64,000 nucleotides of DNA from an uncultured Candidatus Saccharibacteria bacterium (GCA_964548205.1 CAZJPJ010000002.1:5737-69736); one strand, 5' to 3'. Numbered from the stretch's first letter, positions 4,310-64,000 are shown. Program-made: numbers and translations. The notes: generated by a model from the letters alone, not told the origin.

Positions 4310-4738
4310 ATGCATAGGCAAAAACTTTTCCTAGAATTCTTTGTTTCCATAGTTGTTCTAGGTGTTTTAAATTTTTTGGCTACAAAATATAATTGGTATT
4401 GGACCAATGATTATTTTGATTCGATGATGCACTTTCTTGGAGGGGTTATGGTGGCGCTATTTTTTATGTGGCTGTATTTTTATTCTGGCTGGTTTGTGCC
4501 TCCTTCTAGGAATCTAACACACTTTTTTTGTGCCACATTGCTTTGTGTTATTTTTGTAGCCGTCAGTTGGGAGGTCTACGAATTGCTTTTGGGAGAAGCA
4601 AAGTTTAATGCAAAAAATTATCGTCTAGATACTACGCTCGATTTTATAATGGATACATTGGGGGCATTGGCTGCAATATTGTATGGTTATCTGAGCGAGA
4701 TAGGGCTTAGTGCCAAAAATATAAGAACTGGCATATGA
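4310..4738 (+). CDS. Hypothetical integral membrane protein (4 predicted TM segments)
   Basis: Hydrophobic segments VSIVVLGVLNFL, GGVMVALFFMWLYFY, CATLLCVIFVAVSW, LGALAAILYGYL. No confident family assignment. Confidence 0.5.
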   Translation: MHRQKLFLEFFVSIVVLGVLNFLATKYNWYWTNDYFDSMMHFLGGVMVALFFMWLYFYSGWFVPPSRNLTHFFCATLLCVIFVAVSWEVYELLLGEAKFNAKNYRLDTTLDFIMDTLGALAAILYGYLSEIGLSAKNIRTGI

Positions 4739-6129
4739 AAACCCGACAGATCGGAAACGAGATTATTTTTTACGGTGGAGTCGGTTCTACCACAGGTGCC
4801 AATTTTATGTTTACCAATGGCAAAGTAAAAGTTCTCATAGATTGTGGTCTGCGACAAGGTTCTAAAAAGGAAGAAGAAGAAAATTTTTTAGACTTTTCTT
4901 ATGATCCAAGCGAAGTAGATTTTCTGCTTATAACCCACGCCCATATGGATCATATTGGGAGGGTGCCAAAACTGATCAGAGATGGTTTTAGGGGCAAGAT
5001 CGTGTCTACTGCTGCAACCAAGCAACTGTCAGAACTTGCTCTGCAGGATGCTCTCAGGGTTATTTCTTCAAAATATCCAGATAGAGTGTTGTTTGAAAGT
5101 GAAGATGTAGAAGTCGCATTGCGTATATGGGAAACAAAAGAGTATCACGAAGTTTTTGAGTTGGGCGAGGGTTTAAAATGTGAGTTTTACAACTCGGGAC
5201 ATATTCTAGGTTCTTCTATTGTGGTTATAGAAGATAAGAGTGGGCGAGTAGCTTTTACTGGAGACTTGGGTAATTCGCCATCCCTTCTTTTACAAGACGT
5301 AGAATTGCCACAAAATATTGATTATTTGGTTATAGAGAGTGTGTATGGAGACAGGAATCATGATAATAAAGCAGAGAGACATGGGAAGATGCAAAATCTT
5401 ATAAGAGAGGGTATTAGGCGTGGCGGGGCTATTCTTATACCAGTCTTTTCTATCGAGAGGGCTCAAGTTCTCCTATATGAAATAAATAACATGATAGAAG
5501 ATGGAGAAATCGATCAGGTGCCGGTTTATCTTGATTCACCTCTCGGAGCTAAAGTGACAGAGGTTTATAGAAATTATAAAGAGCTATTCAATAAAAATAT
5601 TAAAGCCGAAATATCAGGTGGAGACGATATATTTGATTTTCCGAATTTTAAGATCATAGATAGTTTGCAAGACTCAAGTTTGATTCACAAAGAAAAAGGC
5701 CCCAAAATAATTTTAGCCGGATCTGGGATGTCAGAAGGTGGGAGAATGATAAGTCATGAGCAGTTTTATCTGGAAGATCCAAATTCGACACTCATCTTTG
5801 TCGGTTATCAAGCAGTAGCTACTCTGGGTAGAAGATTGGAGCAGGGAGAGAAACGTATCGAAATATATAACAAAAACAAGGAAGGGAAAAAAGAAAAGAA
5901 GATAATAAATGTCAGAGCCCATATTGAAAAAATAAATGGTTACTCCTCACATATGGACATGGATCACCTAACCGAGTTTGTCGACAATCTCAATGCACAA
6001 CACAAGCTTAGAAAAGTTTTTGTGTGTATGGGAGAACCAAAATCCTCGCTGCATTTGGTACAACGTCTGCGAGATTATGTCGGTGTCGAAGCTGTGTACC
6101 CTGAGATAAATAGGGAATACATTGTTTGA
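4735..6129 (+). CDS. MBL-fold metallo-hydrolase, beta-CASP RNA-processing family (RNase J/CPSF-like)
   Basis: Metallo-beta-lactamase motif ITHAHMDHIG, N-terminal GG.G...LIDCG pattern, and a C-terminal beta-CASP-like region. Overlaps the upstream ORF by 4 nt. Adjacent to rny. Confidence 0.7.
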   Translation: MKTRQIGNEIIFYGGVGSTTGANFMFTNGKVKVLIDCGLRQGSKKEEEENFLDFSYDPSEVDFLLITHAHMDHIGRVPKLIRDGFRGKIVSTAATKQLSELALQDALRVISSKYPDRVLFESEDVEVALRIWETKEYHEVFELGEGLKCEFYNSGHILGSSIVVIEDKSGRVAFTGDLGNSPSLLLQDVELPQNIDYLVIESVYGDRNHDNKAERHGKMQNLIREGIRRGGAILIPVFSIERAQVLLYEINNMIEDGEIDQVPVYLDSPLGAKVTEVYRNYKELFNKNIKAEISGGDDIFDFPNFKIIDSLQDSSLIHKEKGPKIILAGSGMSEGGRMISHEQFYLEDPNSTLIFVGYQAVATLGRRLEQGEKRIEIYNKNKEGKKEKKIINVRAHIEKINGYSSHMDMDHLTEFVDNLNAQHKLRKVFVCMGEPKSSLHLVQRLRDYVGVEAVYPEINREYIV

Positions 6130-13524: not shown

Positions 13525-16500
13525 ATGAGTAATCCAGGGTTGGAAATTGATAAAGGAATCAAAAGGTCCCCGGTAGATAGTTTGAGGTCTTTTGTAACCG
13601 ATCATGGGTATAAGGTTGAGTTCAATAGTGAGTTTTCAAACCTTGGCGCTGAAGAAAAGAACAGAGTTGCCGATATTTGGTTAGATTATCTAAGCAGTTT
13701 ATCAGAAGATGGTTTAAAAAGTTTTTTCTCTGGCCGTCAAGATAACATGCAAGTTATATCCGCCGACACTACTTACATTACACATCAATTAAGTGATGGC
13801 GATACTGCTGAGACAGAACCAACAAGGAGAATCACTTTTGGTTTAAACCCAGATTTTAAAAGAATATCAGATTTGTTAAATAGTTTAGATATAGGATGGA
13901 ACACTTCGGATAGTTTTGCTTTAATGAATGATCGAGCAAGAAAGAGAATATTAAGGGAAGTTGCTGATCGCTTGACCGAAAATTCTGATTCAGATTTGGT
14001 TGTGGCTCTTGGTGAGTTAAAGAAAAGAGAAGTGAGTATAATGTTGGCTCCAAATTCTCCCGGTGGTCACAATGGGGTGTCTTTGTCTGAAGATGGAAAA
14101 ATTTTAAATATAGCCAACCATTTTTTTACCGGTGCGGATATTTTAAGAGCTCTTGGTTTGGGCAATTTGATTAGTGTCAAGCAAGAGAAAAAGCAGGAAC
14201 AAGATGCAGAAATAAAAGGTCTAAAACTAGACATTTATCAGAAATTAGCGGGTGTAAATGTAGAGTATGGTCTTGAAGGAGATGAATTGGCAGAAGGTCT
14301 TCATAATTTTCTTAAGGTACTCAAAACCTATAGTTTATCTGAGTTGCAGACGATAAAAGAAAGATTTTCCAATATCTTGATAACAAAAGGTGTAGATATG
14401 TATTCTGATCTTGATTTGTTATTAAGAAAAGAAAGACAGGGTAGTTTGAGAGTTGATGCAACCCTTCCTTTCGAGGCTTTGAAACGGAACATAGATATTT
14501 TGGTCAATCCACTTCTTTTGTCAGATGATGTGCCAAGTCCTGATATTCCTGTACCGGAAATAGATGCTGAGGATGCAAATCCAGATCCATTTAAGGAGGG
14601 CGTGTTCGATCAATCTGAAGAAGTCAAAACTGGTATCGAAAAATTTAAACAAGATCTTTTTGAAGCAAGTAAAGATCTGGCGCGAGCCGAGTTTGATTTT
14701 AATAAGAGTAAAAGTCCCGAGGATAGAGAAAAAATGGATGAAGCCCAGACAAGATTGTACCAAAAAAGAGCGGAACTTGACCAAGAGGTTTTGAAAAATG
14801 TTAGTTCTAGAGCCAAAGATGAAAACATCGACGGTGCTAATTTGCAGGATGTAGATATAAAAATCGGATCTATATATAGGCGTATACAGATGGAGATATT
14901 GGCAGAAGAAAGAAGAGTCTTTCTAGACGAATACAGAAGTTATAGTGAACAAAATAGAGAAAGGGGAGCCAAAGATTGGCTTATAGAAAAAGCCAAAAAA
15001 GCCTTAGGTATAAAGGGGGTACAGTGGTATCTGGGTCTAAACAAATACAAGAGGACTGCTATAAATGTTGCCATATTTAGTACTGCTGTGACTGTAGGTA
15101 CTTTTGCTACGGGAATTGGGGCTGTAGCGGCTGCGGGCACAGGAGTTTCTATGGGAGCAATCAGAGGGGTCAGAGCTTTAGGAGCTTTGGGGACGGGGTA
15201 CCTTACTAACTCTCAGGTAGAGAAGAGAGGTATTAAAACACTAAATATCCTGTCTAAAGATGCTATAGATACTCTAGAAAAAGAAGAAAGAGAAAAAATA
15301 GAAAATTCAGGTATGGATATAAATGCAAAAGCAAAAGCTTATGAAGAGTTAGAGAGACGTCTTACAAGTGAAAAGAAAAAACTGAATATATCAAAGATAG
15401 TCGCAACTCTTGCAGGTGGTGTAGGTGGAGGTGTGGGTACTGGTCTGTTGCTAGATGCGTTTTACGGAGGAACAGGAAGTTCTTCTTTGCTGAACAATCG
15501 TTCTGGTCGCGCTTCTTTTGATCCCTCTTCTCAAAATGGAAGAAATTCTTTAACAGGATTATCGCCAAAGTCTCAAGACCAGATCCCTGTTGCGGGCAAA
15601 GGTGTTACAGAAGAGGTTGTCAAACCTATAGAACTTGTACCTCCTGCACAAGAGATGATGCCGCAGGTTGCTATACAGGAAATGTTTGGAAATACTGAAG
15701 CGGTGAAGCATATAGTGGAAGCTGGAGATTCTCAATGGAAACTTCTCGAAAAGACTCTTGAAAACTATGACAAATACAAACAGCTCTCTTCTGGAGAGGG
15801 GCAAAGTGCAAATGCTGTACTGGAGGCAAAGAGAACCTATGTAATCTCAATGCTAAATCAGGAGATTCAAAAAGACCCTTCTCAATATGGAGTAGATGCT
15901 GATGGGCTAAAGGTTGGCGATAAAGTTGATTATACAAAGTTGTTTGAAAACAAAGCTTTAGTGGATAGGGCTATAAATGAAGCAGAAAATCTAAAACCAA
16001 ATCAGATAGAGAATATTATTAAGAATAATGCTCAAGTAAAAAATTGGGTAGAAAAGCATTCCGGAGAAGCTCTTGATGAGAGTAAGGTAAGCGAAATTAT
16101 TTCTAACGACACTTCTAAGACTTCTGGGGGTATAAAATCACTATATACAGAATCCAGTGGTTCTACGGGCGCTGAAGGTGTTGATAATGAAGATGTGAAT
16201 GCTCGTGAGAGCACCACAGTTGCCCCAGATAAGGGGGGAGTAGAAGAAGTTGCAACTCCACAAGCAGCGGGTGCCAATGCGACGAAAGAAGCTGCTAAAG
16301 AAGTAGAGTTGCTCAAGAACAGTGAATACTTTGATGTATACAAGAAAGATATTGGTGAATCGTTGGTCCAATTCTTAGAATTAAAGGAACAAATCTTAAA
16401 ATTGGATTTACCGCAAAATGTTTCTAAGAATCTTGTAGCAAAAATTGATTACCTAACAAACAGTATAGAGGTTTTAAAAGAAAACCTGAATACATTGACG

Positions 16501-17223
16501 ACAGAATCGTATAATCAGCAAATTGAAAACATAGCAAATGAGTATGAACAACTTATCAATGAAGCTCGCAAGGCTATATCTGACGAAACTAAGTCAAGAG
16601 GTCTAATGGAAGATTTATCTAATGAAAAAAGATTACTTGCCAATCTAATAGACAATAAAAAGCCTAGTGTTGGTAACAGCGGTTTAGATGAGCAGAGAAA
16701 TATGATTCACAATGAAATAGCTGCTGCAAAGGAGAGATTGGTCGCTTTGCAATCACAGACTAAAGACAATGTAGTAGAGATGCCGACGAGGAATGCAAAT
16801 CTTGAGAGGACTATGTATGGAGATATTAGTGATATAGAAAGAATAGGAAAAACATTTGAACAAGAATTTAGAAATATATATGACCAAAATGGTTGGTTGA
16901 GACGTACGTCTGGAATTGATACTAAGGAGGGCCGATGGATGCTCTCTCAGAATTTTGACAAGATTTTGAAATTTGCCACAACTGGTGATGCACAAAAATC
17001 TGGATTGGCAGCTGAAGCTATAAACACCATATCTGGATCTCCCAAACATCAAGCTTTTCTTAATGAGATAAGAGATTTGCATAGTATGGCAAAAGAAAAT
17101 GGTATTGCAATAACAGTAGCCCCCAACACTGGTGTTCGAGAAGGTATGATGAAGTTGGTCGAATCTATTATGAGATTCCAAAATAACGCATCAGCTACAA
17201 ATGTGTTGCCTAAAGTGGCATAA
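13525..17223 (+). CDS. Giant hypothetical membrane protein of 1232 aa with no recognisable domains
   Basis: Uninterrupted 3.7-kb ORF. Central Gly/Ala-rich hydrophobic segments (AINVAIFSTAVTVGTFATGIGAVAAAGTGVSMGAI; IVATLAGGVGGGVGTGLLL). Long predicted coiled-coil regions on both sides and a Ser/Gly-rich linker. Confidence 0.6.
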   Translation: MSNPGLEIDKGIKRSPVDSLRSFVTDHGYKVEFNSEFSNLGAEEKNRVADIWLDYLSSLSEDGLKSFFSGRQDNMQVISADTTYITHQLSDGDTAETEPTRRITFGLNPDFKRISDLLNSLDIGWNTSDSFALMNDRARKRILREVADRLTENSDSDLVVALGELKKREVSIMLAPNSPGGHNGVSLSEDGKILNIANHFFTGADILRALGLGNLISVKQEKKQEQDAEIKGLKLDIYQKLAGVNVEYGLEGDELAEGLHNFLKVLKTYSLSELQTIKERFSNILITKGVDMYSDLDLLLRKERQGSLRVDATLPFEALKRNIDILVNPLLLSDDVPSPDIPVPEIDAEDANPDPFKEGVFDQSEEVKTGIEKFKQDLFEASKDLARAEFDFNKSKSPEDREKMDEAQTRLYQKRAELDQEVLKNVSSRAKDENIDGANLQDVDIKIGSIYRRIQMEILAEERRVFLDEYRSYSEQNRERGAKDWLIEKAKKALGIKGVQWYLGLNKYKRTAINVAIFSTAVTVGTFATGIGAVAAAGTGVSMGAIRGVRALGALGTGYLTNSQVEKRGIKTLNILSKDAIDTLEKEEREKIENSGMDINAKAKAYEELERRLTSEKKKLNISKIVATLAGGVGGGVGTGLLLDAFYGGTGSSSLLNNRSGRASFDPSSQNGRNSLTGLSPKSQDQIPVAGKGVTEEVVKPIELVPPAQEMMPQVAIQEMFGNTEAVKHIVEAGDSQWKLLEKTLENYDKYKQLSSGEGQSANAVLEAKRTYVISMLNQEIQKDPSQYGVDADGLKVGDKVDYTKLFENKALVDRAINEAENLKPNQIENIIKNNAQVKNWVEKHSGEALDESKVSEIISNDTSKTSGGIKSLYTESSGSTGAEGVDNEDVNARESTTVAPDKGGVEEVATPQAAGANATKEAAKEVELLKNSEYFDVYKKDIGESLVQFLELKEQILKLDLPQNVSKNLVAKIDYLTNSIEVLKENLNTLTTESYNQQIENIANEYEQLINEARKAISDETKSRGLMEDLSNEKRLLANLIDNKKPSVGNSGLDEQRNMIHNEIAAAKERLVALQSQTKDNVVEMPTRNANLERTMYGDISDIERIGKTFEQEFRNIYDQNGWLRRTSGIDTKEGRWMLSQNFDKILKFATTGDAQKSGLAAEAINTISGSPKHQAFLNEIRDLHSMAKENGIAITVAPNTGVREGMMKLVESIMRFQNNASATNVLPKVA

Positions 17224-58305: not shown

Positions 58306-58530
58306 CTTGTGTTTACATTGAGCTTGCCGAAGTGTTGCGGGCCGCTTCTAACGAGTCTCGCAAAATTTATTCCAAGATTGTTGCGGGGCCCAGACTCGCA
58401 CTAGGATCTTTTGGTTATGAGCCAAACGAATTACTTTACTCTACCCCGCAGATAATGATGTGAAAAATACTATCATATTTTTCATAGAATGCAAAATATC
58501 TAAAAGTGTGATAGATTTTCTATGCAAAAC

Positions 58531-58603
58531 GACGGAGTAGCTCAGTTGGTAGAGCACAGGACTCATAAGCCTGGGGTCGTGGGTTCAATCCCCACCTCCG
58601 TCA
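58531..58603 (+). tRNA. tRNA with CAT anticodon (Met elongator, or Ile2 if lysidinylated)
   Basis: Acceptor gacggag/ctccgtc, D arm gctc-agttggta-gagc, anticodon loop ctCATaa, T arm gtggg-ttcaatc-cccac, discriminator A. One A:G mismatch at 31:39. An extended -10 (TGaTAGATT) lies ~12 nt upstream. Confidence 0.75.
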
Positions 58604-58607
58604 CAAT

Positions 58608-59229: not shown

Positions 59230-59511
59230 GCGGGTGTAGCTCAGCTGGTTAGAGCGTCCGCCTGTAGATATGCAGCTTTTTGCCGAAAAGGCAAATTGAA
59301 ACTCTTTGGGATATCGGTGAAGGCTAAGTCTTATTTATATATATAGGATATGCGAACACCGAGGGAACTCGCCGATAAGGCGAGAGCGCCGTAGAGACTA
59401 GATACCAAAGCACCTAAAAGGAAACTCATGGTGAAGATATAGTCCACTCCGCTATGAAAATAGCGGGTAAGTGCACGCGGAAGGCCGTGGGTTCAAATCC
59501 CATCACTCGCG
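59230..59511 (+). tRNA. tRNA-Asp(GUC) gene interrupted by a group I intron in the anticodon loop (exon 1 59230-59265, exon 2 59474-59511)
   Basis: Exons join to gcgggtg-ta-gctc-agctggtta-gagc-g-tccgc-CTGTCAC-gcgga-aggcc-gtggg-ttcaaat-cccat-cactcgc-G. G10, G73 and the CUGUCAC loop are as in canonical tRNA-Asp. The 5' splice site follows U35 and pairs ctgt with the gcag guide (U:G). The intron ends in G. Confidence 0.8.
59266..59473 (+). ncRNA. Group I (self-splicing) intron, ~208 nt, Azoarcus/tRNA-intron type core
   Basis: The P7-P9 region cgccGTAGAGACTAGAtaccaaagCACCTAAaaGGaAACtCATGG closely matches the Azoarcus tRNA-Ile intron core (GUAGAGACUAGACGGCACCCACCUAAGGCAAACGCUAUGG). gggat...ctaagtc resembles its P3-P4 segment. 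No ORF inside. Confidence 0.75.
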
Positions 59512-59591
59512 CATCGATTTTTATACTGTGGTTAAGCCACAAAAACCACACACCCCTAAGGGATTAGAACTGTGGTAGTATTTTGGGTATG
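59497..59591 (+). repeat. Cassette-junction repeat family A, founder copy (tRNA-Asp 3' end plus downstream ~80 nt)
   Basis: aaatcccatcactcgcgcatcgatttttatactgtggttaagccacaaaaaccacacacccctaagggattagaactgtggtagtattttgggtATGg. Near-identical copies occur at 62471-62577 and 63646-63754. Confidence 0.8.
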
Positions 59592-60349: not shown

Positions 60350-60399
60350 GTGTCTGGCTTTCGCTTTTATAAATATAGAGTGATAGTATTTCGGGTATG
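60350..60399 (+). repeat. Promoter/start-module repeat family B, copy 1
   Basis: gtgtctggctttcgcttttataaatatagagtgatagtatttcgggtATG. A 48/50 match occurs at 62107-62156. It carries the TGaTAGTAT extended -10 and a near-leaderless start context. It is preceded by the hairpin agccagacac...gtgtctggct. Confidence 0.7.
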
Positions 60400-60924
60400 A
60401 AAATCTACTTAATAAGACATGGTGAGACAACTGGTGATATAGAAGATAGATATGGTGGTAGTTATGACGACCATCTTACAGAGTTAGGAAGACAACAGAT
60501 TCAAGAAACAGCCGATAAAATTGTAGGAAAAGGGATAGAAATCATTTTTACCAGTACCCTTATAAGAGCAAAGGAATCTGGACAAATAATTTCTTCAAAG
60601 ATTGGTTGTGCGGTAGAAGAAAGAGAAGGTCTACAAGAAAGACACTATGGCATTCTAACTGGTCTTACAAAAGCTGAAGCCCTAGAAAAATACCCAGAAG
60701 TTGTGGAAGCGCATAAGGACTCAAAAAATACTGACCCAGAAGGGGAGAGTTATGAAGACTTTCAAAACAGAGTTCTGAATTCATTCAAAGAAATACAAAA
60801 AGAAAACTATAATACTGTTGCCATAGTCTCTCATGGTGGCCCAATTAAGCAAATCCTGGCTTACTTGAATATGGATATTCCTGAAAAACTGGGAGACGGA
60901 GAGATAATTGAGTTTGAACATTAG
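60397..60924 (+). CDS. Histidine phosphatase family protein (phosphoglycerate mutase-like)
   Basis: MKIYLIRHGET (RHG catalytic motif), ...VSHGGPI second His. Confidence 0.65.
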   Translation: MKIYLIRHGETTGDIEDRYGGSYDDHLTELGRQQIQETADKIVGKGIEIIFTSTLIRAKESGQIISSKIGCAVEEREGLQERHYGILTGLTKAEALEKYPEVVEAHKDSKNTDPEGESYEDFQNRVLNSFKEIQKENYNTVAIVSHGGPIKQILAYLNMDIPEKLGDGEIIEFEH

Positions 60925-60951
60925 TTCTAACGTCGTACACTACCCCGCGCA
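60923..60951 (+). repeat. Partial copy of junction repeat A (5' part only)
   Basis: agttctaacgtcgtacactaccccgcgca versus agttctaacatcgtacactagctcgcgca in the full copies. Confidence 0.6.
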
Positions 60952-61216
60952 AGACCAAAAATTGCTGGATTTTTTCCAGCAATTTTTGCGTCTATGCACG
61001 ATGTAGAAGCAAGCCAACTGCTTGGCTTGCGTTGGGATTTGAAAAGCGCAGCCATGTTTTTGTAGCAACAAAAACAGGCGAGCTAGGGTCATGAAAAATT
61101 TTCTGCAGAAAATTTATTCCTGACCAAATCCCATCACTCGCGCTAAGGGACTTTTTCTTAAAATATGTTGATAAATAAAGCCCGTTGGGTTCTAACGGGA
61201 GCTATTGTTTTTTTAT
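60952..61216. other. Highly structured noncoding region carrying an exact 19-nt copy of the tRNA-Asp 3' end (att-like) and ending in an intrinsic terminator
   Basis: Perfect hairpins at 60955-60989 (14-bp stem), 61009-61030 and 61056-61077. The self-complementary gaaaattttc occurs twice around tgcag. caaatcccatcactcgcgc at 61125-61143 equals the tRNA-Asp 3' end. Terminator cccgtt-gggttct-aacggg plus T7 lies at 61179-61216. Confidence 0.55.
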
Positions 61217-61304: not shown

Positions 61305-61655
61305 ATGCCCGAGATTATTCTTTCTAGGCTGCAGTATGTGGCGGCGGGTATCGTCTTTCAGTCGTCGTTGTTTTCGTTTGACGATCTGGCTCATTTGAAT
61401 CATGTCGAGGTCAAGATTGCACCGACGACGGTTGGAAAGAGGGCCTTGATTGCTTATGTAAAGTTGTACTTCGATCGTTGGACATATGTTCAACACGGAC
61501 CCAGCGATCATCCTGCCCACAAAATGCCTGCAGAAGTCAGTGTTGTTTTCCTTCAGAACAGACAAAGGAAGCTGACGGGATACTACACTGTCGCCTTTTT
61601 CTACAACGGTGATCCTGGAGAACCGAAATTTCTCCATTCCATTGTTGGTTGGTAA
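61305..61655 (+). CDS. Hypothetical protein encoded in a GC-rich cassette
   Basis: Good Shine-Dalgarno (GAGGTG) 7 nt upstream of the ATG. The ORF region is much more GC-rich than the genome. A fully overlapping antisense ORF (61245-61658) exists, so the strand call is tentative. Confidence 0.4.
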   Translation: MPEIILSRLQYVAAGIVFQSSLFSFDDLAHLNHVEVKIAPTTVGKRALIAYVKLYFDRWTYVQHGPSDHPAHKMPAEVSVVFLQNRQRKLTGYYTVAFFYNGDPGEPKFLHSIVGW

Positions 61656-62106: not shown

Positions 62107-62156
62107 GTGTCTGGCTTTCGCTTTTATAAAGATAGAGTGATAGTATTTTGGGTATG
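62107..62156 (+). repeat. Promoter/start-module repeat family B, copy 2
   Basis: gtgtctggctttcgcttttataaagatagagtgatagtattttgggtATG. Confidence 0.7.
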
Positions 62157-62480
62157 GAAAAAGTAAAAATTGTTGTGTTTGTTCCAGAAACTCATGCTGA
62201 TGCGGTTAGAAAAGCTGTTGGAGAAGCAGGTGCTGGAAAAATTGGAAACTATATCCATTGTAGCTTTTCAGTAAAGGGCAAAGGAAGATTCATTCCTCAA
62301 GATGGAGCTGACCCAACAATAGGGGAAATAGGTAGATACGAAGAGGTAGACGAAGAAAGAATCGAGTTTGTTTGTGACAAGGGTATGTTAGATCAAGTGA
62401 TTAAAGCTATGAAAGAAGTACACCCATATGAAGAGGTTGCATATGATGTTTACCCACTTTTAATAAAATCCCAGTTCTAA
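62154..62480 (+). CDS. Hypothetical small alpha/beta protein, tentatively PII/CutA-like fold
   Basis: KIVVFVPETHADAVRKAVGEAGAGKIGNY...HPYEEVAYDVYPL resembles GlnB-like superfamily members (HPYE motif as in CutA). The ATG start is used rather than the TTG at 62148. The stop codon lies inside the junction repeat. Confidence 0.4.
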   Translation: MEKVKIVVFVPETHADAVRKAVGEAGAGKIGNYIHCSFSVKGKGRFIPQDGADPTIGEIGRYEEVDEERIEFVCDKGMLDQVIKAMKEVHPYEEVAYDVYPLLIKSQF

Positions 62481-62577
62481 CATCGTACACTAGCTCGCGC
62501 ATCGGTTTTTCTATTGTGGTTAAGCCACAAAAACCACACACCCCTAAGGGATTTGAACTGTGGTATATTGGGATAGG
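62471..62577 (+). repeat. Cassette-junction repeat family A, copy 2
   Basis: ccagttctaacatcgtacactagctcgcgcatcggtttttctattgtggttaagccacaaaaaccacacacccctaagggatttgaactgtggtatattgggatagg. Confidence 0.8.
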
Positions 62578-63157: not shown

Positions 63158-63655
63158 ATGGAATCTCAGCCCAAACAATTTAACTATGAGAATAGTCTAA
63201 TAAGAGAAGTTTATGAATTATTAGGAGCCAGCACTCCGCTTGAGCTCCATGATAAATATGTCATAGAAGAACAGAAATTATTTAAGTCTCATGAATGGGA
63301 TTATGATAACCATGAGCAAATACAGAATAAGGTAAAAGATATTTTAGATAACGTAGATCCCACCACTCTTACTGAAGAGGAGCAAGAATGGAGACAGGAG
63401 ATACTGTGGTTCTGGTACCACCATGCTATTAGCTGTGCCATCTGGAAGAAAGATAGAGAAAAAGCTATTGAGTACTCAGAAAAAGCACTTTCTCTACAAG
63501 ATCGAGATCACCCTAATAAAATAACTAAGGTTCTTAGTTTGCTTGTCAACGACAAACTAGAAGAAGCAGAGGAATTTGTAAAAACTATTAATACCGATAA
63601 AGACACGGCCGAAGGGTTAATCGAGGATTATAAGAATGGAGGATTCCAGTTCTAA
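63158..63655 (+). CDS. Hypothetical protein
   Basis: 165-aa acidic ORF. Its last codons (…QF*) are provided by the junction repeat, as for the 62154 ORF. Confidence 0.4.
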   Translation: MESQPKQFNYENSLIREVYELLGASTPLELHDKYVIEEQKLFKSHEWDYDNHEQIQNKVKDILDNVDPTTLTEEEQEWRQEILWFWYHHAISCAIWKKDREKAIEYSEKALSLQDRDHPNKITKVLSLLVNDKLEEAEEFVKTINTDKDTAEGLIEDYKNGGFQF

Positions 63656-63754
63656 CATCGTACACTAGCTCGCGCATCGGTTTTTATATTGTGGTTAAGC
63701 CACAAAAACCACACACCCCTAAGGGATTTGAACTGTGGTAGTATTTTGGGTATG
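63646..63754 (+). repeat. Cassette-junction repeat family A, copy 3
   Basis: ccagttctaacatcgtacactagctcgcgcatcggtttttatattgtggttaagccacaaaaaccacacacccctaagggatttgaactgtggtagtattttgggtATG. Confidence 0.8.
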
Positions 63755-64000
63755 GAAATATTGGAATTATCTGAAATAGGTGAGAAGGTAATAAAAAACA
63801 AGACAAATATTTTAATTGGTTTAAGTATAAACAATAGCTATTTCAAAGATGGAAACCTGGAGAAAATAATCCAATGGTCAGCAGAAAATGCAAAAAGAAT
63901 ATTCATAATGATACCTGATAAACCTGCCATTTTTACCTTAATGAGCTTTGGTTATTCTGAAGATAAGGCTAAGGCAAAGGCTCGCCTCGAATCTAATAGA
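63752..64000 (+). CDS. Cyclodipeptide synthase (tRNA-dependent, CDPS)-like protein, N-terminal 83 aa (3' end outside the window)
   Basis: NILIGLSINNSYFKDGNLEKIIQWSAENAKRIFIMIPDKPAIFTLMSFGYSEDKAKAKAR parallels the CDPS N-terminal core (for example the B. subtilis YvmC-like [24 protein letters not shown]...LLAGHEAANLLEALG...KAERKVR), including the catalytic Ser context. Confidence 0.5.
   Translation, partial: MEILELSEIGEKVIKNKTNILIGLSINNSYFKDGNLEKIIQWSAENAKRIFIMIPDKPAIFTLMSFGYSEDKAKAKARLESNR

What the first reader, a model, noticed from the sequence alone, without database searches (positions are those of the whole stretch)
63752..64000. Cyclodipeptide synthase-like gene as the last cassette
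The truncated ORF aligns position-for-position with the N-terminal catalytic core of tRNA-dependent cyclodipeptide synthases (GxS..NSYF; the YvmC/AlbC family). CDPSs hijack aminoacyl-tRNAs to make diketopiperazines and are rare outside Actinobacteria and Firmicutes. Finding one in a tRNA-linked mobile cassette array of a reduced-genome organism suggests horizontally acquired secondary metabolism or signalling.
Basis: partly seen in the sequence, partly recalled or inferred. Interest (0 to 1): 0.6.

Follow-up and report, generated by a model that had tools for sequence, protein, structure and literature searches.

The report
Cyclodipeptide synthase gene, Parcubacteria-type genome
The open reading frame at the end of the window is the start of an intact tRNA-dependent cyclodipeptide synthase gene in a small-genome (CPR/Parcubacteria-type) bacterium; it belongs to an uncharacterised but already catalogued branch of a known enzyme family, so it is a sound but fairly ordinary find.

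Summary
Observation confirmed. An ORF starts at ATG 63752 and runs off the window. Its 83 residues match the CDPS models above their curated cut-offs: Pfam PF16715 at 51.3 bits and TIGR04539 at 63.6 bits.

I recovered the full product, P0152 (NCBI, 136-kb contig). It is 100% identical over the window part. It matches the CDPS models end to end (112 and 144 bits). Its AlphaFold model (pLDDT 95.7) superposes on CDPS crystal structures at TM 0.84-0.87.

The catalytic Ser25, Asn28, Glu166, Tyr186 and His187 are present, which makes it the NYH subfamily. Two residues conserved in the characterised CDPSs differ: Tyr178 is Phe and Pro184 is Ala (AlbC numbering). The whole clade shares these changes, and they co-occur with Tyr at position 200.

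The host is Parcubacteria-like (LigA 65-67% identical to Zambryskibacteria and Parcubacteria). CDPSs in CPR bacteria are already known. One is characterised and crystallised. Gondry et al. 2018 list Ryanbacteria and Andersenbacteria proteins whose P1 substrate-pocket motif (LGMPWFIY) is the same as or nearly the same as this one's.

The repeat-bounded gene array next to a tRNA is real. Mobility, "last cassette" and horizontal origin remain unproven. Relatives carry no adjacent tailoring genes. New member of a known kind; interest is low to moderate.

The parts
63752..64000 (+). First 83 codons of a 214-codon cyclodipeptide synthase gene. It contains G23 and the nucleophile S25 (AlbC G35 and S37), N28 (N40), Y30, and P1-pocket residues L21, G23, M53 and P55.
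   Evidence: HMM matches. (P0152 is 100% identical). (alignment to AlbC, YvmC and BtCDPS).
63728..63751 (+). Eight in-frame codons from TTG (MNCGSILG) that the NCBI gene call includes. They are probably 5' leader or promoter rather than coding, because relatives begin at the ATG.
   Evidence: the P0152 N-terminus equals the translation of these bases. (homologues align from Met-1 at 63752).
63736..63754 (+). Motif TGGTAGTATTTTGGGTATG, an extended -10-like TGnTAGTAT ending 7 nt before the ATG. It is one of four copies, each at the start of an ORF in the last 4.5 kb. A promoter role is inferred.
   Evidence: 4 matches; 0.05 expected. (no canonical -35/-10 pair was called here).
63643..63740 (+). 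Third copy of a 98-nt junction repeat, directly upstream of the CDPS gene. It comprises a tRNA-3'-end-like CTCGCGCATCG, a GTGGTTAAGCCAC hairpin and the promoter-like motif.
62468..62565 (+). Second copy of the 98-nt junction repeat (context).
59480..59577 (+). First copy of the junction repeat. It begins inside the 3' end of the tRNA-Asp gene (context).
59230..59512 (+). tRNA-Asp(GUC) gene interrupted by a 208-nt group I intron in the anticodon loop. It anchors the repeat-bounded gene array (context).
   Evidence: Rfam Intron_gpI 47.8 bits, E 2.4e-10. (ARAGORN with introns allowed).
61126..61143 (+). Exact 18-nt duplicate of the tRNA-Asp 3' end (AAATCCCATCACTCGCGC). This resembles an att-site-like direct repeat (context).
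   Evidence: 2 matches; 0.02 expected.

Best explanation
The ORF is the 5' part of an intact, stand-alone cyclodipeptide synthase gene of the NYH subfamily. The product is 214 aa counted from ATG 63752. The gene lies on the chromosome of a Parcubacteria-type (CPR/Patescibacteria) bacterium.

Shown: homology to CDPS over the full length; a predicted CDPS fold; and presence of the acyl-accepting Ser25, Gly23, Asn28, Glu166, the cyclisation Tyr186 and His187.

Inferred from the established CDPS ping-pong mechanism (AlbC, YvmC, Rv2275): the aminoacyl group of a first aminoacyl-tRNA is transferred to Ser25. A second aminoacyl-tRNA then gives a dipeptidyl-enzyme. Tyr186-assisted intramolecular cyclisation releases a 2,5-diketopiperazine.

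Relatives have no recognisable tailoring enzyme next to the gene, so the product is probably an unmodified cyclodipeptide. Its composition cannot be predicted. The pockets are P1 LGMPWFIY and P2 TGVNSMP. Among characterised enzymes, the closest motifs make aliphatic or Pro-containing cyclodipeptides.

The clade replaces Tyr178 with Phe and Pro184 with Ala, and has Tyr at position 200. Anchoring of the first substrate may therefore differ from AlbC.

The gene sits behind the third copy of a 98-nt junction repeat in a mosaic, tRNA-Asp-linked stretch. This is compatible with acquisition by recombination at that hotspot.
For: Fragment HMM matches exceed the curated cut-offs.

P0152 is the full-length product. 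It is 100% identical over the window's 83 aa plus the 8 upstream codons. It lies on a 136,196-nt NCBI contig, the same length as the contig recorded for the 100%-identical LigA (P0205) of this window.

P0152 scores 112.2 bits against PF16715 (positions 7-215 of 220) and 144.2 bits against TIGR04539 (6-216 of 220).

phmmer against the PDB gives BtCDPS 2.4e-15, S. haemolyticus cLL synthase 8.5e-15, then YvmC and AlbC. The alignments place S25, E166, Y186 and H187 on S37, E182, Y202 and H203.

The AF2 model has pLDDT 95.7 and pTM 0.91. All of the top 50 Foldseek PDB hits are CDPSs, with TM 0.84-0.87 to 6ez3, 7azu and 3oqh.

About 70 related clusters of 208-231 aa conserve the same motifs. In my 163-sequence alignment, S37 is kept in 160, E182 in 161 and Y202 in 158. 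This argues for purifying selection on an active site.

The P1 motif is identical to that of a Ca. Ryanbacteria protein listed among NYH CDPSs by Gondry et al. 2018, Data Sheet 4.

Relatives' loci show no CDO, P450, methyltransferase or prenyltransferase genes beside the CDPS.
Against: Tyr178 (AlbC numbering) is Phe162 and Pro184 is Ala168. In AlbC, Y178F is 'poorly active' and impairs acyl-enzyme formation (PMC3105412; PMC5935735).

I found no member of this clade that has been assayed.

The closest relative (P0001, 70% identical) carries an in-frame TAA. A 134-aa truncated relative, P0201, is recorded on 22 contigs. Decay therefore occurs in this group.

The DNA beyond base 64000 was not available to me. 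Downstream genes and the 3' two-thirds of the gene are known only through the database protein.
Confidence: 0.8

Rival explanations
1. The protein is a CDPS-fold protein whose chemistry has shifted. With Phe at 178 and Ala at 184, it may bind aminoacyl-tRNA but work differently. It might be very slow, release a linear dipeptide, or transfer the aminoacyl group to another acceptor instead of making a diketopiperazine.
For: F162 and A168 replace two of the six residues called conserved in the family. The change is fixed across the clade: F178 with A184 in 73 of 163 aligned relatives.
Against: The nucleophile Ser, Glu182, the cyclisation Tyr202, and the His203 and Asn40 that hold the dipeptidyl intermediate are all conserved. 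Phe178 is accompanied by Tyr200 in 75 of 76 cases, which suggests compensation rather than loss. QM/MM work found that Y178F does not raise the cyclisation barrier.
Confidence: 0.14
2. The gene is a decaying remnant or pseudogene in a mosaic integration hotspot and is not expressed.
For: The gene lies in a patchwork of repeats and short ORFs. Its closest relative has an internal stop, and another relative is truncated. GC is low, at the 1.4th percentile.
Against: The database product is full length (214 aa from the ATG) and has every motif of the clade. A promoter-like motif shared with three neighbouring genes sits directly upstream.
Confidence: 0.04
3. The match is a chance ORF, or comes from a different Rossmann-fold family such as a class I aminoacyl-tRNA synthetase fragment.
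For: None found.
Against: CDPS was the only Pfam family found, even with the E-value limit set to 10. All PDB sequence and fold hits are CDPSs.
Confidence: 0.01

Closest known systems
Ca. Ryanbacteria OGZ44804.1 and Ca. Andersenbacteria OGY31047.1, listed as putative NYH CDPSs without a predicted activity in Gondry et al. 2018, Data Sheet 4
   Same: They come from CPR metagenome genomes and are NYH type. Their P1 pockets are LGMPWFIY and LGMPWLIY; the window protein's is LGMPWFIY. Their P2 pockets, TGCGRMP and TGVGRMP, resemble TGVNSMP here.
   Different: I compared only the pocket strings, not whole sequences. Neither protein has been characterised.
Firmicute cyclo(Leu-Leu) synthases: BtCDPS (6ztu, 7azu), S. 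haemolyticus CDPS (6ez3) and YvmC (3oqh)
   Same: These are the best solved relatives by sequence (E 2e-15 to 6e-9) and by fold (TM 0.84-0.87). They are NYH type, of similar size and stand-alone. S37, N40, E182, Y202 and H203 align.
   Different: Identity is only 19-25%. They have Y178, P184 and L/M200 where this protein has F, A and Y. Their P1 pockets differ (L/I-G-L-A-F-F-F-L/M). In Bacillus the yvmC gene is linked to a P450, CypX (my own knowledge). No such neighbour appears in this clade.
AlbC (Streptomyces noursei; 3oqv, 4q24), the mechanistic reference CDPS
   Same: It has the same fold and the same catalytic Ser, Glu, Tyr and His. Numbering transfers cleanly.
   Different: Identity is about 20%. 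AlbC needs the Tyr178 hydroxyl, since Y178F is poorly active, whereas this clade has Phe there naturally. AlbC sits beside the cyclodipeptide oxidase genes albA and albB in the albonoursin cluster (my own knowledge). No equivalent appears here.
ParcuCDPS (CDPS 90, Parcubacteria bacterium RAAC4_OD1_1; 7qb8 and related entries), which makes cyclo(His-Pro) and cyclo(His-Glu)
   Same: It is the one characterised and crystallised CDPS from a CPR bacterium. It shows that CPR CDPSs can be active.
   Different: It belongs to the other subfamily (XYP) and is a distant relative: E 1.9e-7 by sequence and TM 0.62-0.67. Its pockets differ (GAYAWELY and FEWKYTR).

Membership tests
Cyclodipeptide synthase (PF16715 / TIGR04539) | Profile-HMM match above the curated cut-off over the whole domain | tested here: met
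   Fragment: 51.3 bits (cut-off 27) and 63.6 bits (cut-off 45). Full product P0152: 112.2 bits over positions 7-215 of 220, and 144.2 bits over 6-216 of 220.
Cyclodipeptide synthase (PF16715 / TIGR04539) | Class-I aaRS-like Rossmann fold of the solved CDPSs | tested here: met
   This rests on a predicted model only. AF2 pLDDT is 95.7 and pTM 0.91. All of the top 50 Foldseek PDB hits are CDPSs, with TM up to 0.87.
Cyclodipeptide synthase (PF16715 / TIGR04539) | Acyl-accepting Ser37 and Gly35 (AlbC numbering) | tested here: met
   G23 and S25 lie inside the window and align to GIS of AlbC, YvmC and BtCDPS.
Cyclodipeptide synthase (PF16715 / TIGR04539) | Glu182 and the cyclisation Tyr202 | tested here: met
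   E166 and Y186 of P0152. Both lie beyond base 64000, so they are seen only in the database protein.
Cyclodipeptide synthase (PF16715 / TIGR04539) | Tyr178 and Pro184. The literature calls these 'conserved' or 'well conserved' rather than strictly conserved. Tyr178 anchors the first substrate in AlbC. | tested here: not met
   F162 and A168. The clade shares them: F with A in 73 of 163 relatives, and F178 with Y200 in 75 of 76. This does not remove homology-based membership, since Gondry et al. list proteins with the same pocket motif as CDPSs. It does lower the claim that the enzyme works exactly like AlbC.
Cyclodipeptide synthase (PF16715 / TIGR04539) | Formation of a cyclodipeptide from two aminoacyl-tRNAs | not testable with these tools
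   This needs expression with LC-MS/MS, or in-vitro assays.
NYH subfamily of CDPSs (Jacques et al. 2015) | Asn40, Tyr202 and His203 | tested here: met
   N28 (in the window), and Y186 and H187 (in P0152). The profile scores NYH structures (1e-27 to 3e-20) above XYP ParcuCDPS (8e-14).
Integron gene-cassette array | attC sites (structured imperfect palindromes) between cassettes, plus an intI integrase | tested here: not met
   The 98-nt repeats fold weakly as ssDNA, with z from -1.3 to -1.7. No integrase domain occurs in the ORFs I scanned between 57.5 and 64 kb. The repeats carry promoter-like motifs, unlike promoterless cassettes (my own knowledge).
tRNA-targeted integrated element or genomic islet | Direct repeat of the tRNA 3' end bounding inserted DNA | tested here: met
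   An 18-nt exact duplicate of the tRNA-Asp 3' end lies at 61126-61143. tRNA-3'-like CTCGCGCA cores occur in each 98-nt repeat.
tRNA-targeted integrated element or genomic islet | Integrase or recombinase gene in the element | tested here: inconclusive
   None occurs among the ORFs scanned from 57.5 to 64 kb. The sequence beyond 64000 is not available. There were no matches in viral contigs.

The most novel reading that the evidence does not exclude
The CPR clade to which this gene belongs may be a mechanistic variant of CDPS. In it, the substrate-anchoring tyrosine hydroxyl would have moved from helix alpha7 (position 178, now Phe) to strand beta6 (position 200, now Tyr), with Pro184 becoming Ala. 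The P1 pocket is nearly invariant ([ILV]GMP-W-FIY). These stand-alone enzymes may therefore make one conserved, untailored diketopiperazine. Small-genome CPR bacteria, thought to be episymbiotic, might use it as an exported signal or weapon towards their hosts. In one subclade the enzyme would work with a conserved, uncharacterised ~280-aa partner protein.
Probability: 0.25. Interest if true: 0.5.

Novelty: new member of a known kind. Interest (0 to 1): 0.27.

Why it matters
CPR bacteria have minimal biosynthetic capacity, so any small-molecule product is a candidate mediator of their dependence on host cells. A CDPS needs only charged tRNAs, which makes it a cheap route to such a molecule.

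This gene adds one more example to a CPR-wide clade that has been catalogued but never assayed. The clade naturally lacks the Tyr178 hydroxyl that AlbC needs for efficient acyl-enzyme formation. Assaying one member, together with the F162Y and Y184F swaps, would show whether the CDPS active site tolerates a relocated tyrosine, and would reveal the product.

On its own, the finding does not change what is known. The family, its presence in CPR genomes and its annotation models all already exist.

Tried and rejected
1. Extending the window.
- Two metagenome scans, one with protein patterns and one with an exact 42-mer, found nothing.
- Exact-protein look-ups of neighbouring window genes returned only short Logan contigs from run SRR15237813. 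These contigs break at the repeats.
- A look-up of P0152 found no record.
- The DNA beyond base 64000 therefore stayed unread. The full protein came only from the profile search.

2. Integron or attC reading of the repeats. I rejected it because the ssDNA folds are weak, no integrase was seen, and the repeats carry promoter-like motifs.

3. Phage or viral origin. The repeat has no exact match in viral contigs, and no CDPS relative occurs there.

4. Alternative genetic code as the explanation for the in-frame stop in relative L001. The stop is TAA, not TGA, and window ORFs read normally with table 11. A pseudogene or a sequencing error is more likely.

5. Canonical sigma-70 promoter upstream of the gene. 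The scan called none there. Only an extended -10-like motif is present.

6. A tRNA next to the CDPS as a conserved feature. No tRNA lies beside the CDPS in the six related loci scanned; the only one called, in L003, is about 7 kb away.

7. Product prediction. The pocket motif matches no characterised specificity group in the part of Gondry's table that was readable, so I make no firm prediction.

8. Function of the conserved 280-aa partner. It has no Pfam or PDB sequence match.

Full report
**The observation**

The sequence shows ATG at 63752, followed by an open frame to the last base of the window. The 83 residues contain G23-L-S25 and N28-S-Y-F.

Pfam finds only one family, CDPS (PF16715): E 1.6e-13, 51.3 bits against a cut-off of 27, with residues 7-81 on profile positions 7-81 of 220. 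NCBIfam TIGR04539 (tRNA-dependent cyclodipeptide synthase) gives 63.6 bits against a cut-off of 45. The best solved relatives are BtCDPS (E 2.3e-9), then YvmC, a cLL synthase and AlbC.

**Getting the rest of the protein**

The window ends inside the gene. Several attempts to extend the DNA failed.
- Two metagenome scans found nothing.
- Exact look-ups of neighbouring window proteins returned only short Logan contigs from run SRR15237813, which break at the local repeats.

A profile search with an alignment of relatives then returned P0152. It is 222 aa, from NCBI, on a 136,196-nt contig, and is 100% identical to the query. Its first eight residues, MNCGSILG, are the translation of window bases 63728-63751 from a TTG. 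The window's LigA is likewise 100% identical to a protein (P0205) recorded on a contig of the same length. P0152 is therefore the product of this gene as NCBI called it. Relatives align from the Met encoded at 63752, so I count 214 aa from that ATG.

**Does the full protein hold up?**

It does, by three independent tests.
- P0152 matches PF16715 over positions 7-215 of 220 (112.2 bits) and TIGR04539 over 6-216 of 220 (144.2 bits).
- phmmer against the PDB aligns residues 3-211 with BtCDPS (2.4e-15). It also aligns the protein with the S. haemolyticus cLL synthase, YvmC and AlbC.
- An AlphaFold2 model built on 63 relatives has pLDDT 95.7 and pTM 0.91. All 50 best Foldseek matches in the PDB are CDPSs, with TM 0.84-0.87 to 6ez3, 7azu and 3oqh.

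**Catalytic residues (AlbC numbering in brackets)**

Present: G23 (G35), S25 (S37, the acyl acceptor), N28 (N40), E166 (E182), Y186 (Y202, the cyclisation tyrosine) and H187 (H203). The N/Y/H trio places the protein in the NYH subfamily. Consistent with this, the clade profile scores NYH structures at 1e-27 to 3e-20 and the XYP ParcuCDPS at 8e-14.

Two residues differ: F162 replaces Y178, and A168 replaces P184. In AlbC, Y178F is 'poorly active' and lowers acyl-enzyme formation (PMC3105412). A later QM/MM study calls Y178 and E182 'well conserved', calls S37 and Y202 'strictly conserved', and finds no direct effect of Y178F on the cyclisation barrier (PMC5935735).

In my alignment of 163 sequences (158 relatives, the window protein and four PDB references), the differences are a clade signature.
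- Position 178 is Phe in 76 and Tyr in 83.
- Phe178 goes with Ala184 in 73.
- Phe178 goes with Tyr200 in 75 of 76, whereas Tyr178 has Tyr200 in only 14 of 83.

This fits a compensating relocation of the tyrosine. However, it is one clade, so the covariation is not independent evidence, and I could not inspect model coordinates.

**Substrate pockets**

I mapped the pocket positions through the AlbC alignment.
- P1 (positions 33, 35, 65, 67, 119, 185, 186, 200) reads LGMPWFIY.
- P2 (positions 152, 155, 156, 159, 204, 206, 207) reads TGVNSMP.

The seven P1 positions I tabulated across relatives (all except 119) are nearly invariant in the clade: [ILV]GMPFIY in 63 of 163 sequences.

Gondry et al. 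2018 (Data Sheet 4, sheet 'NYH CDPSs') list two matching entries, neither with a recorded activity.
- Ca. Ryanbacteria OGZ44804.1: LGMPWFIY and TGCGRMP.
- Ca. Andersenbacteria OGY31047.1: LGMPWLIY and TGVGRMP.

In that table the nearest characterised motifs make aliphatic or Pro-containing cyclodipeptides.
- CDPS 77: LGFPWLVF/TGARRMD, which makes cLV, cLL and cLI.
- CDPS 84: LGLPWFLF, which makes cFI.
- The cPX group, for example CGHPWLLY/TDVHRIP, which makes cPP.

I do not regard the product as predictable from these data.

**Host and distribution**

The window carries ordinary chromosomal genes: EF-Tu, ArgS, SHMT, LigA, GatA, and the type IV pilus genes PilB and PilC. The named proteins closest to its LigA come from Ca. 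Zambryskibacteria, the Parcubacteria group and Paceibacterota, at 65-67% identity.

CDPS relatives occur in a Saccharibacteria MAG (L002) and a Nomurabacteria MAG (L003).
- An exhaustive search with the 83-aa fragment found 192 representatives at E <= 1e-3 and 24 at E <= 1e-10.
- The profile search found 69 clusters at E <= 1e-10, mostly 208-231 aa.

CDPSs in CPR bacteria are not new. CDPS 90 from Parcubacteria bacterium RAAC4_OD1_1 makes cHP and cHE, and has crystal structures. Gondry's tables list further CPR entries: Microgenomates, Moranbacteria, Azambacteria, Kaiserbacteria, Buchananbacteria and Kerfeldbacteria. Two of these have C-terminal ABC-transporter domains. The statement that CDPSs are rare outside Actinobacteria and Firmicutes is therefore dated.

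**Genomic context**

The last 4.5 kb of the window is a mosaic that begins at a tRNA.
Rfam's group I intron model matches it at 47.8 bits, E 2.4e-10, just under the gathering score of 50.
- A 98-nt repeat occurs three times, at 59480, 62468 and 63643. The first copy starts in the tRNA 3' end. The third copy ends 12 nt before the CDPS start.
- The motif TGRTAGTATTTYGGGTATG occurs four times, always at an ORF start and only in this stretch.
- The tRNA 3' end is duplicated exactly (18 nt) at 61126-61143.
- A related segment, GTTCTAACRTCGTACACTA, occurs three times.

The 'array next to a tRNA' is therefore real, and it resembles repeated recombination at a tRNA integration hotspot. Several points argue against calling it a mobile cassette array.
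- The repeats do not fold like attC sites, with z from -1.3 to -1.7.
- No integrase domain occurs in the ORFs I scanned from 57.5 to 64 kb.
- Regional GC equals the window mean.
- Nothing similar appears in viral contigs.

The CDPS fragment itself is AT-rich: 31.3% GC, the 1.4th percentile of 249-nt windows. Because three near-identical repeats separate the segments, and an independent assembly breaks there, the order of segments should be checked. Whether the CDPS is the 'last' unit cannot be judged.

**Neighbours in relatives**

Eight related loci (L003, L007, L008, L011, L014, L015, L016, and L002 in part) show no cyclodipeptide oxidase, P450, methyltransferase or prenyltransferase beside the CDPS. 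No tRNA lies beside the CDPS in the six loci scanned for tRNAs (L001, L002, L003, L007, L008, L011); the only one called, in L003, is about 7 kb away. NUDIX genes lie nearby in three of them.

Five loci with otherwise different flanks share a divergently transcribed ~280-aa protein immediately upstream. It is 55-62% identical between loci, has an invariant HPHEW motif, and has no Pfam or PDB match. The window has no homologue of it.

**Verdict**

The gene is a genuine, apparently intact NYH-type CDPS in a Parcubacteria-type genome. Family membership by homology and predicted fold is secure. Activity and product are inferred. The clade's Phe178, Ala184 and Tyr200 signature is the one feature a CDPS specialist might want to test. 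The finding is a new member of a known kind, of low to moderate interest.

Noticed in passing
window 59230-59512 (+): tRNA-Asp(GUC) gene split by a 208-nt group I intron in the anticodon loop. Rfam Intron_gpI gives 47.8 bits, E 2.4e-10, just below the gathering score of 50. Default ARAGORN and the Rfam gathering scan both missed the tRNA.
   Followed up: partly
window 59480-59577, 62468-62565, 63643-63740; also 60350-60403 and 62107-62160: A 98-nt repeat in three copies and a 54-nt repeat in two copies form the junctions between short gene blocks downstream of the tRNA. Each ends in the motif TGRTAGTATTTYGGGTATG, which includes the start codon of the next ORF. The motif occurs four times, and only in this stretch.
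   Followed up: partly
window 61126-61143 and 60924-60950: An exact 18-nt duplicate of the tRNA-Asp 3' end lies 1.6 kb downstream of the tRNA. A diverged tRNA-3'-like segment (GTTCTAACGTCGTACACTACCCCGCGCA) sits right after the histidine-phosphatase gene. Both look like att-type scars, but no integrase is in view.
   Followed up: partly
window 61305-61655 (+): A 116-aa ORF preceded by GAGGTG has GC 46.7% and GC3 0.51. Neighbouring genes have GC3 of 0.25-0.44. It overlaps a 137-aa ORF on the other strand. Its identity is unknown.
   Followed up: no
L001 443-1085 (closest relative, 70% identical): The CDPS homologue has an in-frame TAA after codon 146. It then continues in frame through the FLFQELAF and YLYHS motifs to about 212 aa. 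This indicates a pseudogene, a sequencing error or read-through. Another relative, P0201 (134 aa), is truncated and recorded on 22 contigs.
   Followed up: partly
L003 8973-9818(-), L011 6027-6863(-), L014 4048-4887(-), L015 3056-3889(-), L016 4045-4887(-): A conserved ~280-aa protein is transcribed divergently right next to the CDPS in five loci whose other neighbours differ. In L015 an rve transposase separates the two genes. The protein is 55-62% identical between loci, has an invariant HPHEW motif and a weak HTH-like N-terminus, and has no Pfam or PDB match. It may be a regulator or a new tailoring or partner protein. It is absent from the window.
   Followed up: partly
proteins P0077, P0118, P0140, P0127, P0062 (distant CDPS relatives): CDPS domains occur fused to PAS plus a histidine-kinase ATPase (754 and 711 aa), to a periplasmic solute-binding domain, to a SET domain, and to a P450 fragment. 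The kinase fusions hint at a signalling role for some CDPSs.
   Followed up: no
window 58380-58450 (-) and 58531-58604 (+): Two tRNA-Met(CAU) genes lie head to head, 80 nt apart, just upstream of the mosaic region. The independent Logan contig ends near here.
   Followed up: no
window 4735-6126 (+): A 464-aa beta-CASP/metallo-beta-lactamase protein scores 394.9 bits on NCBIfam 'type VII CRISPR-associated Cas14' (cut-off 800) and 314.8 bits on aCPSF1 (cut-off 580). It is below both cut-offs, so it is probably a beta-CASP ribonuclease.
   Followed up: no
window 13525-17220 (+): A 1232-aa ORF directly upstream of the EF-Tu region has no NCBIfam match at E <= 1e-5.
   Followed up: no
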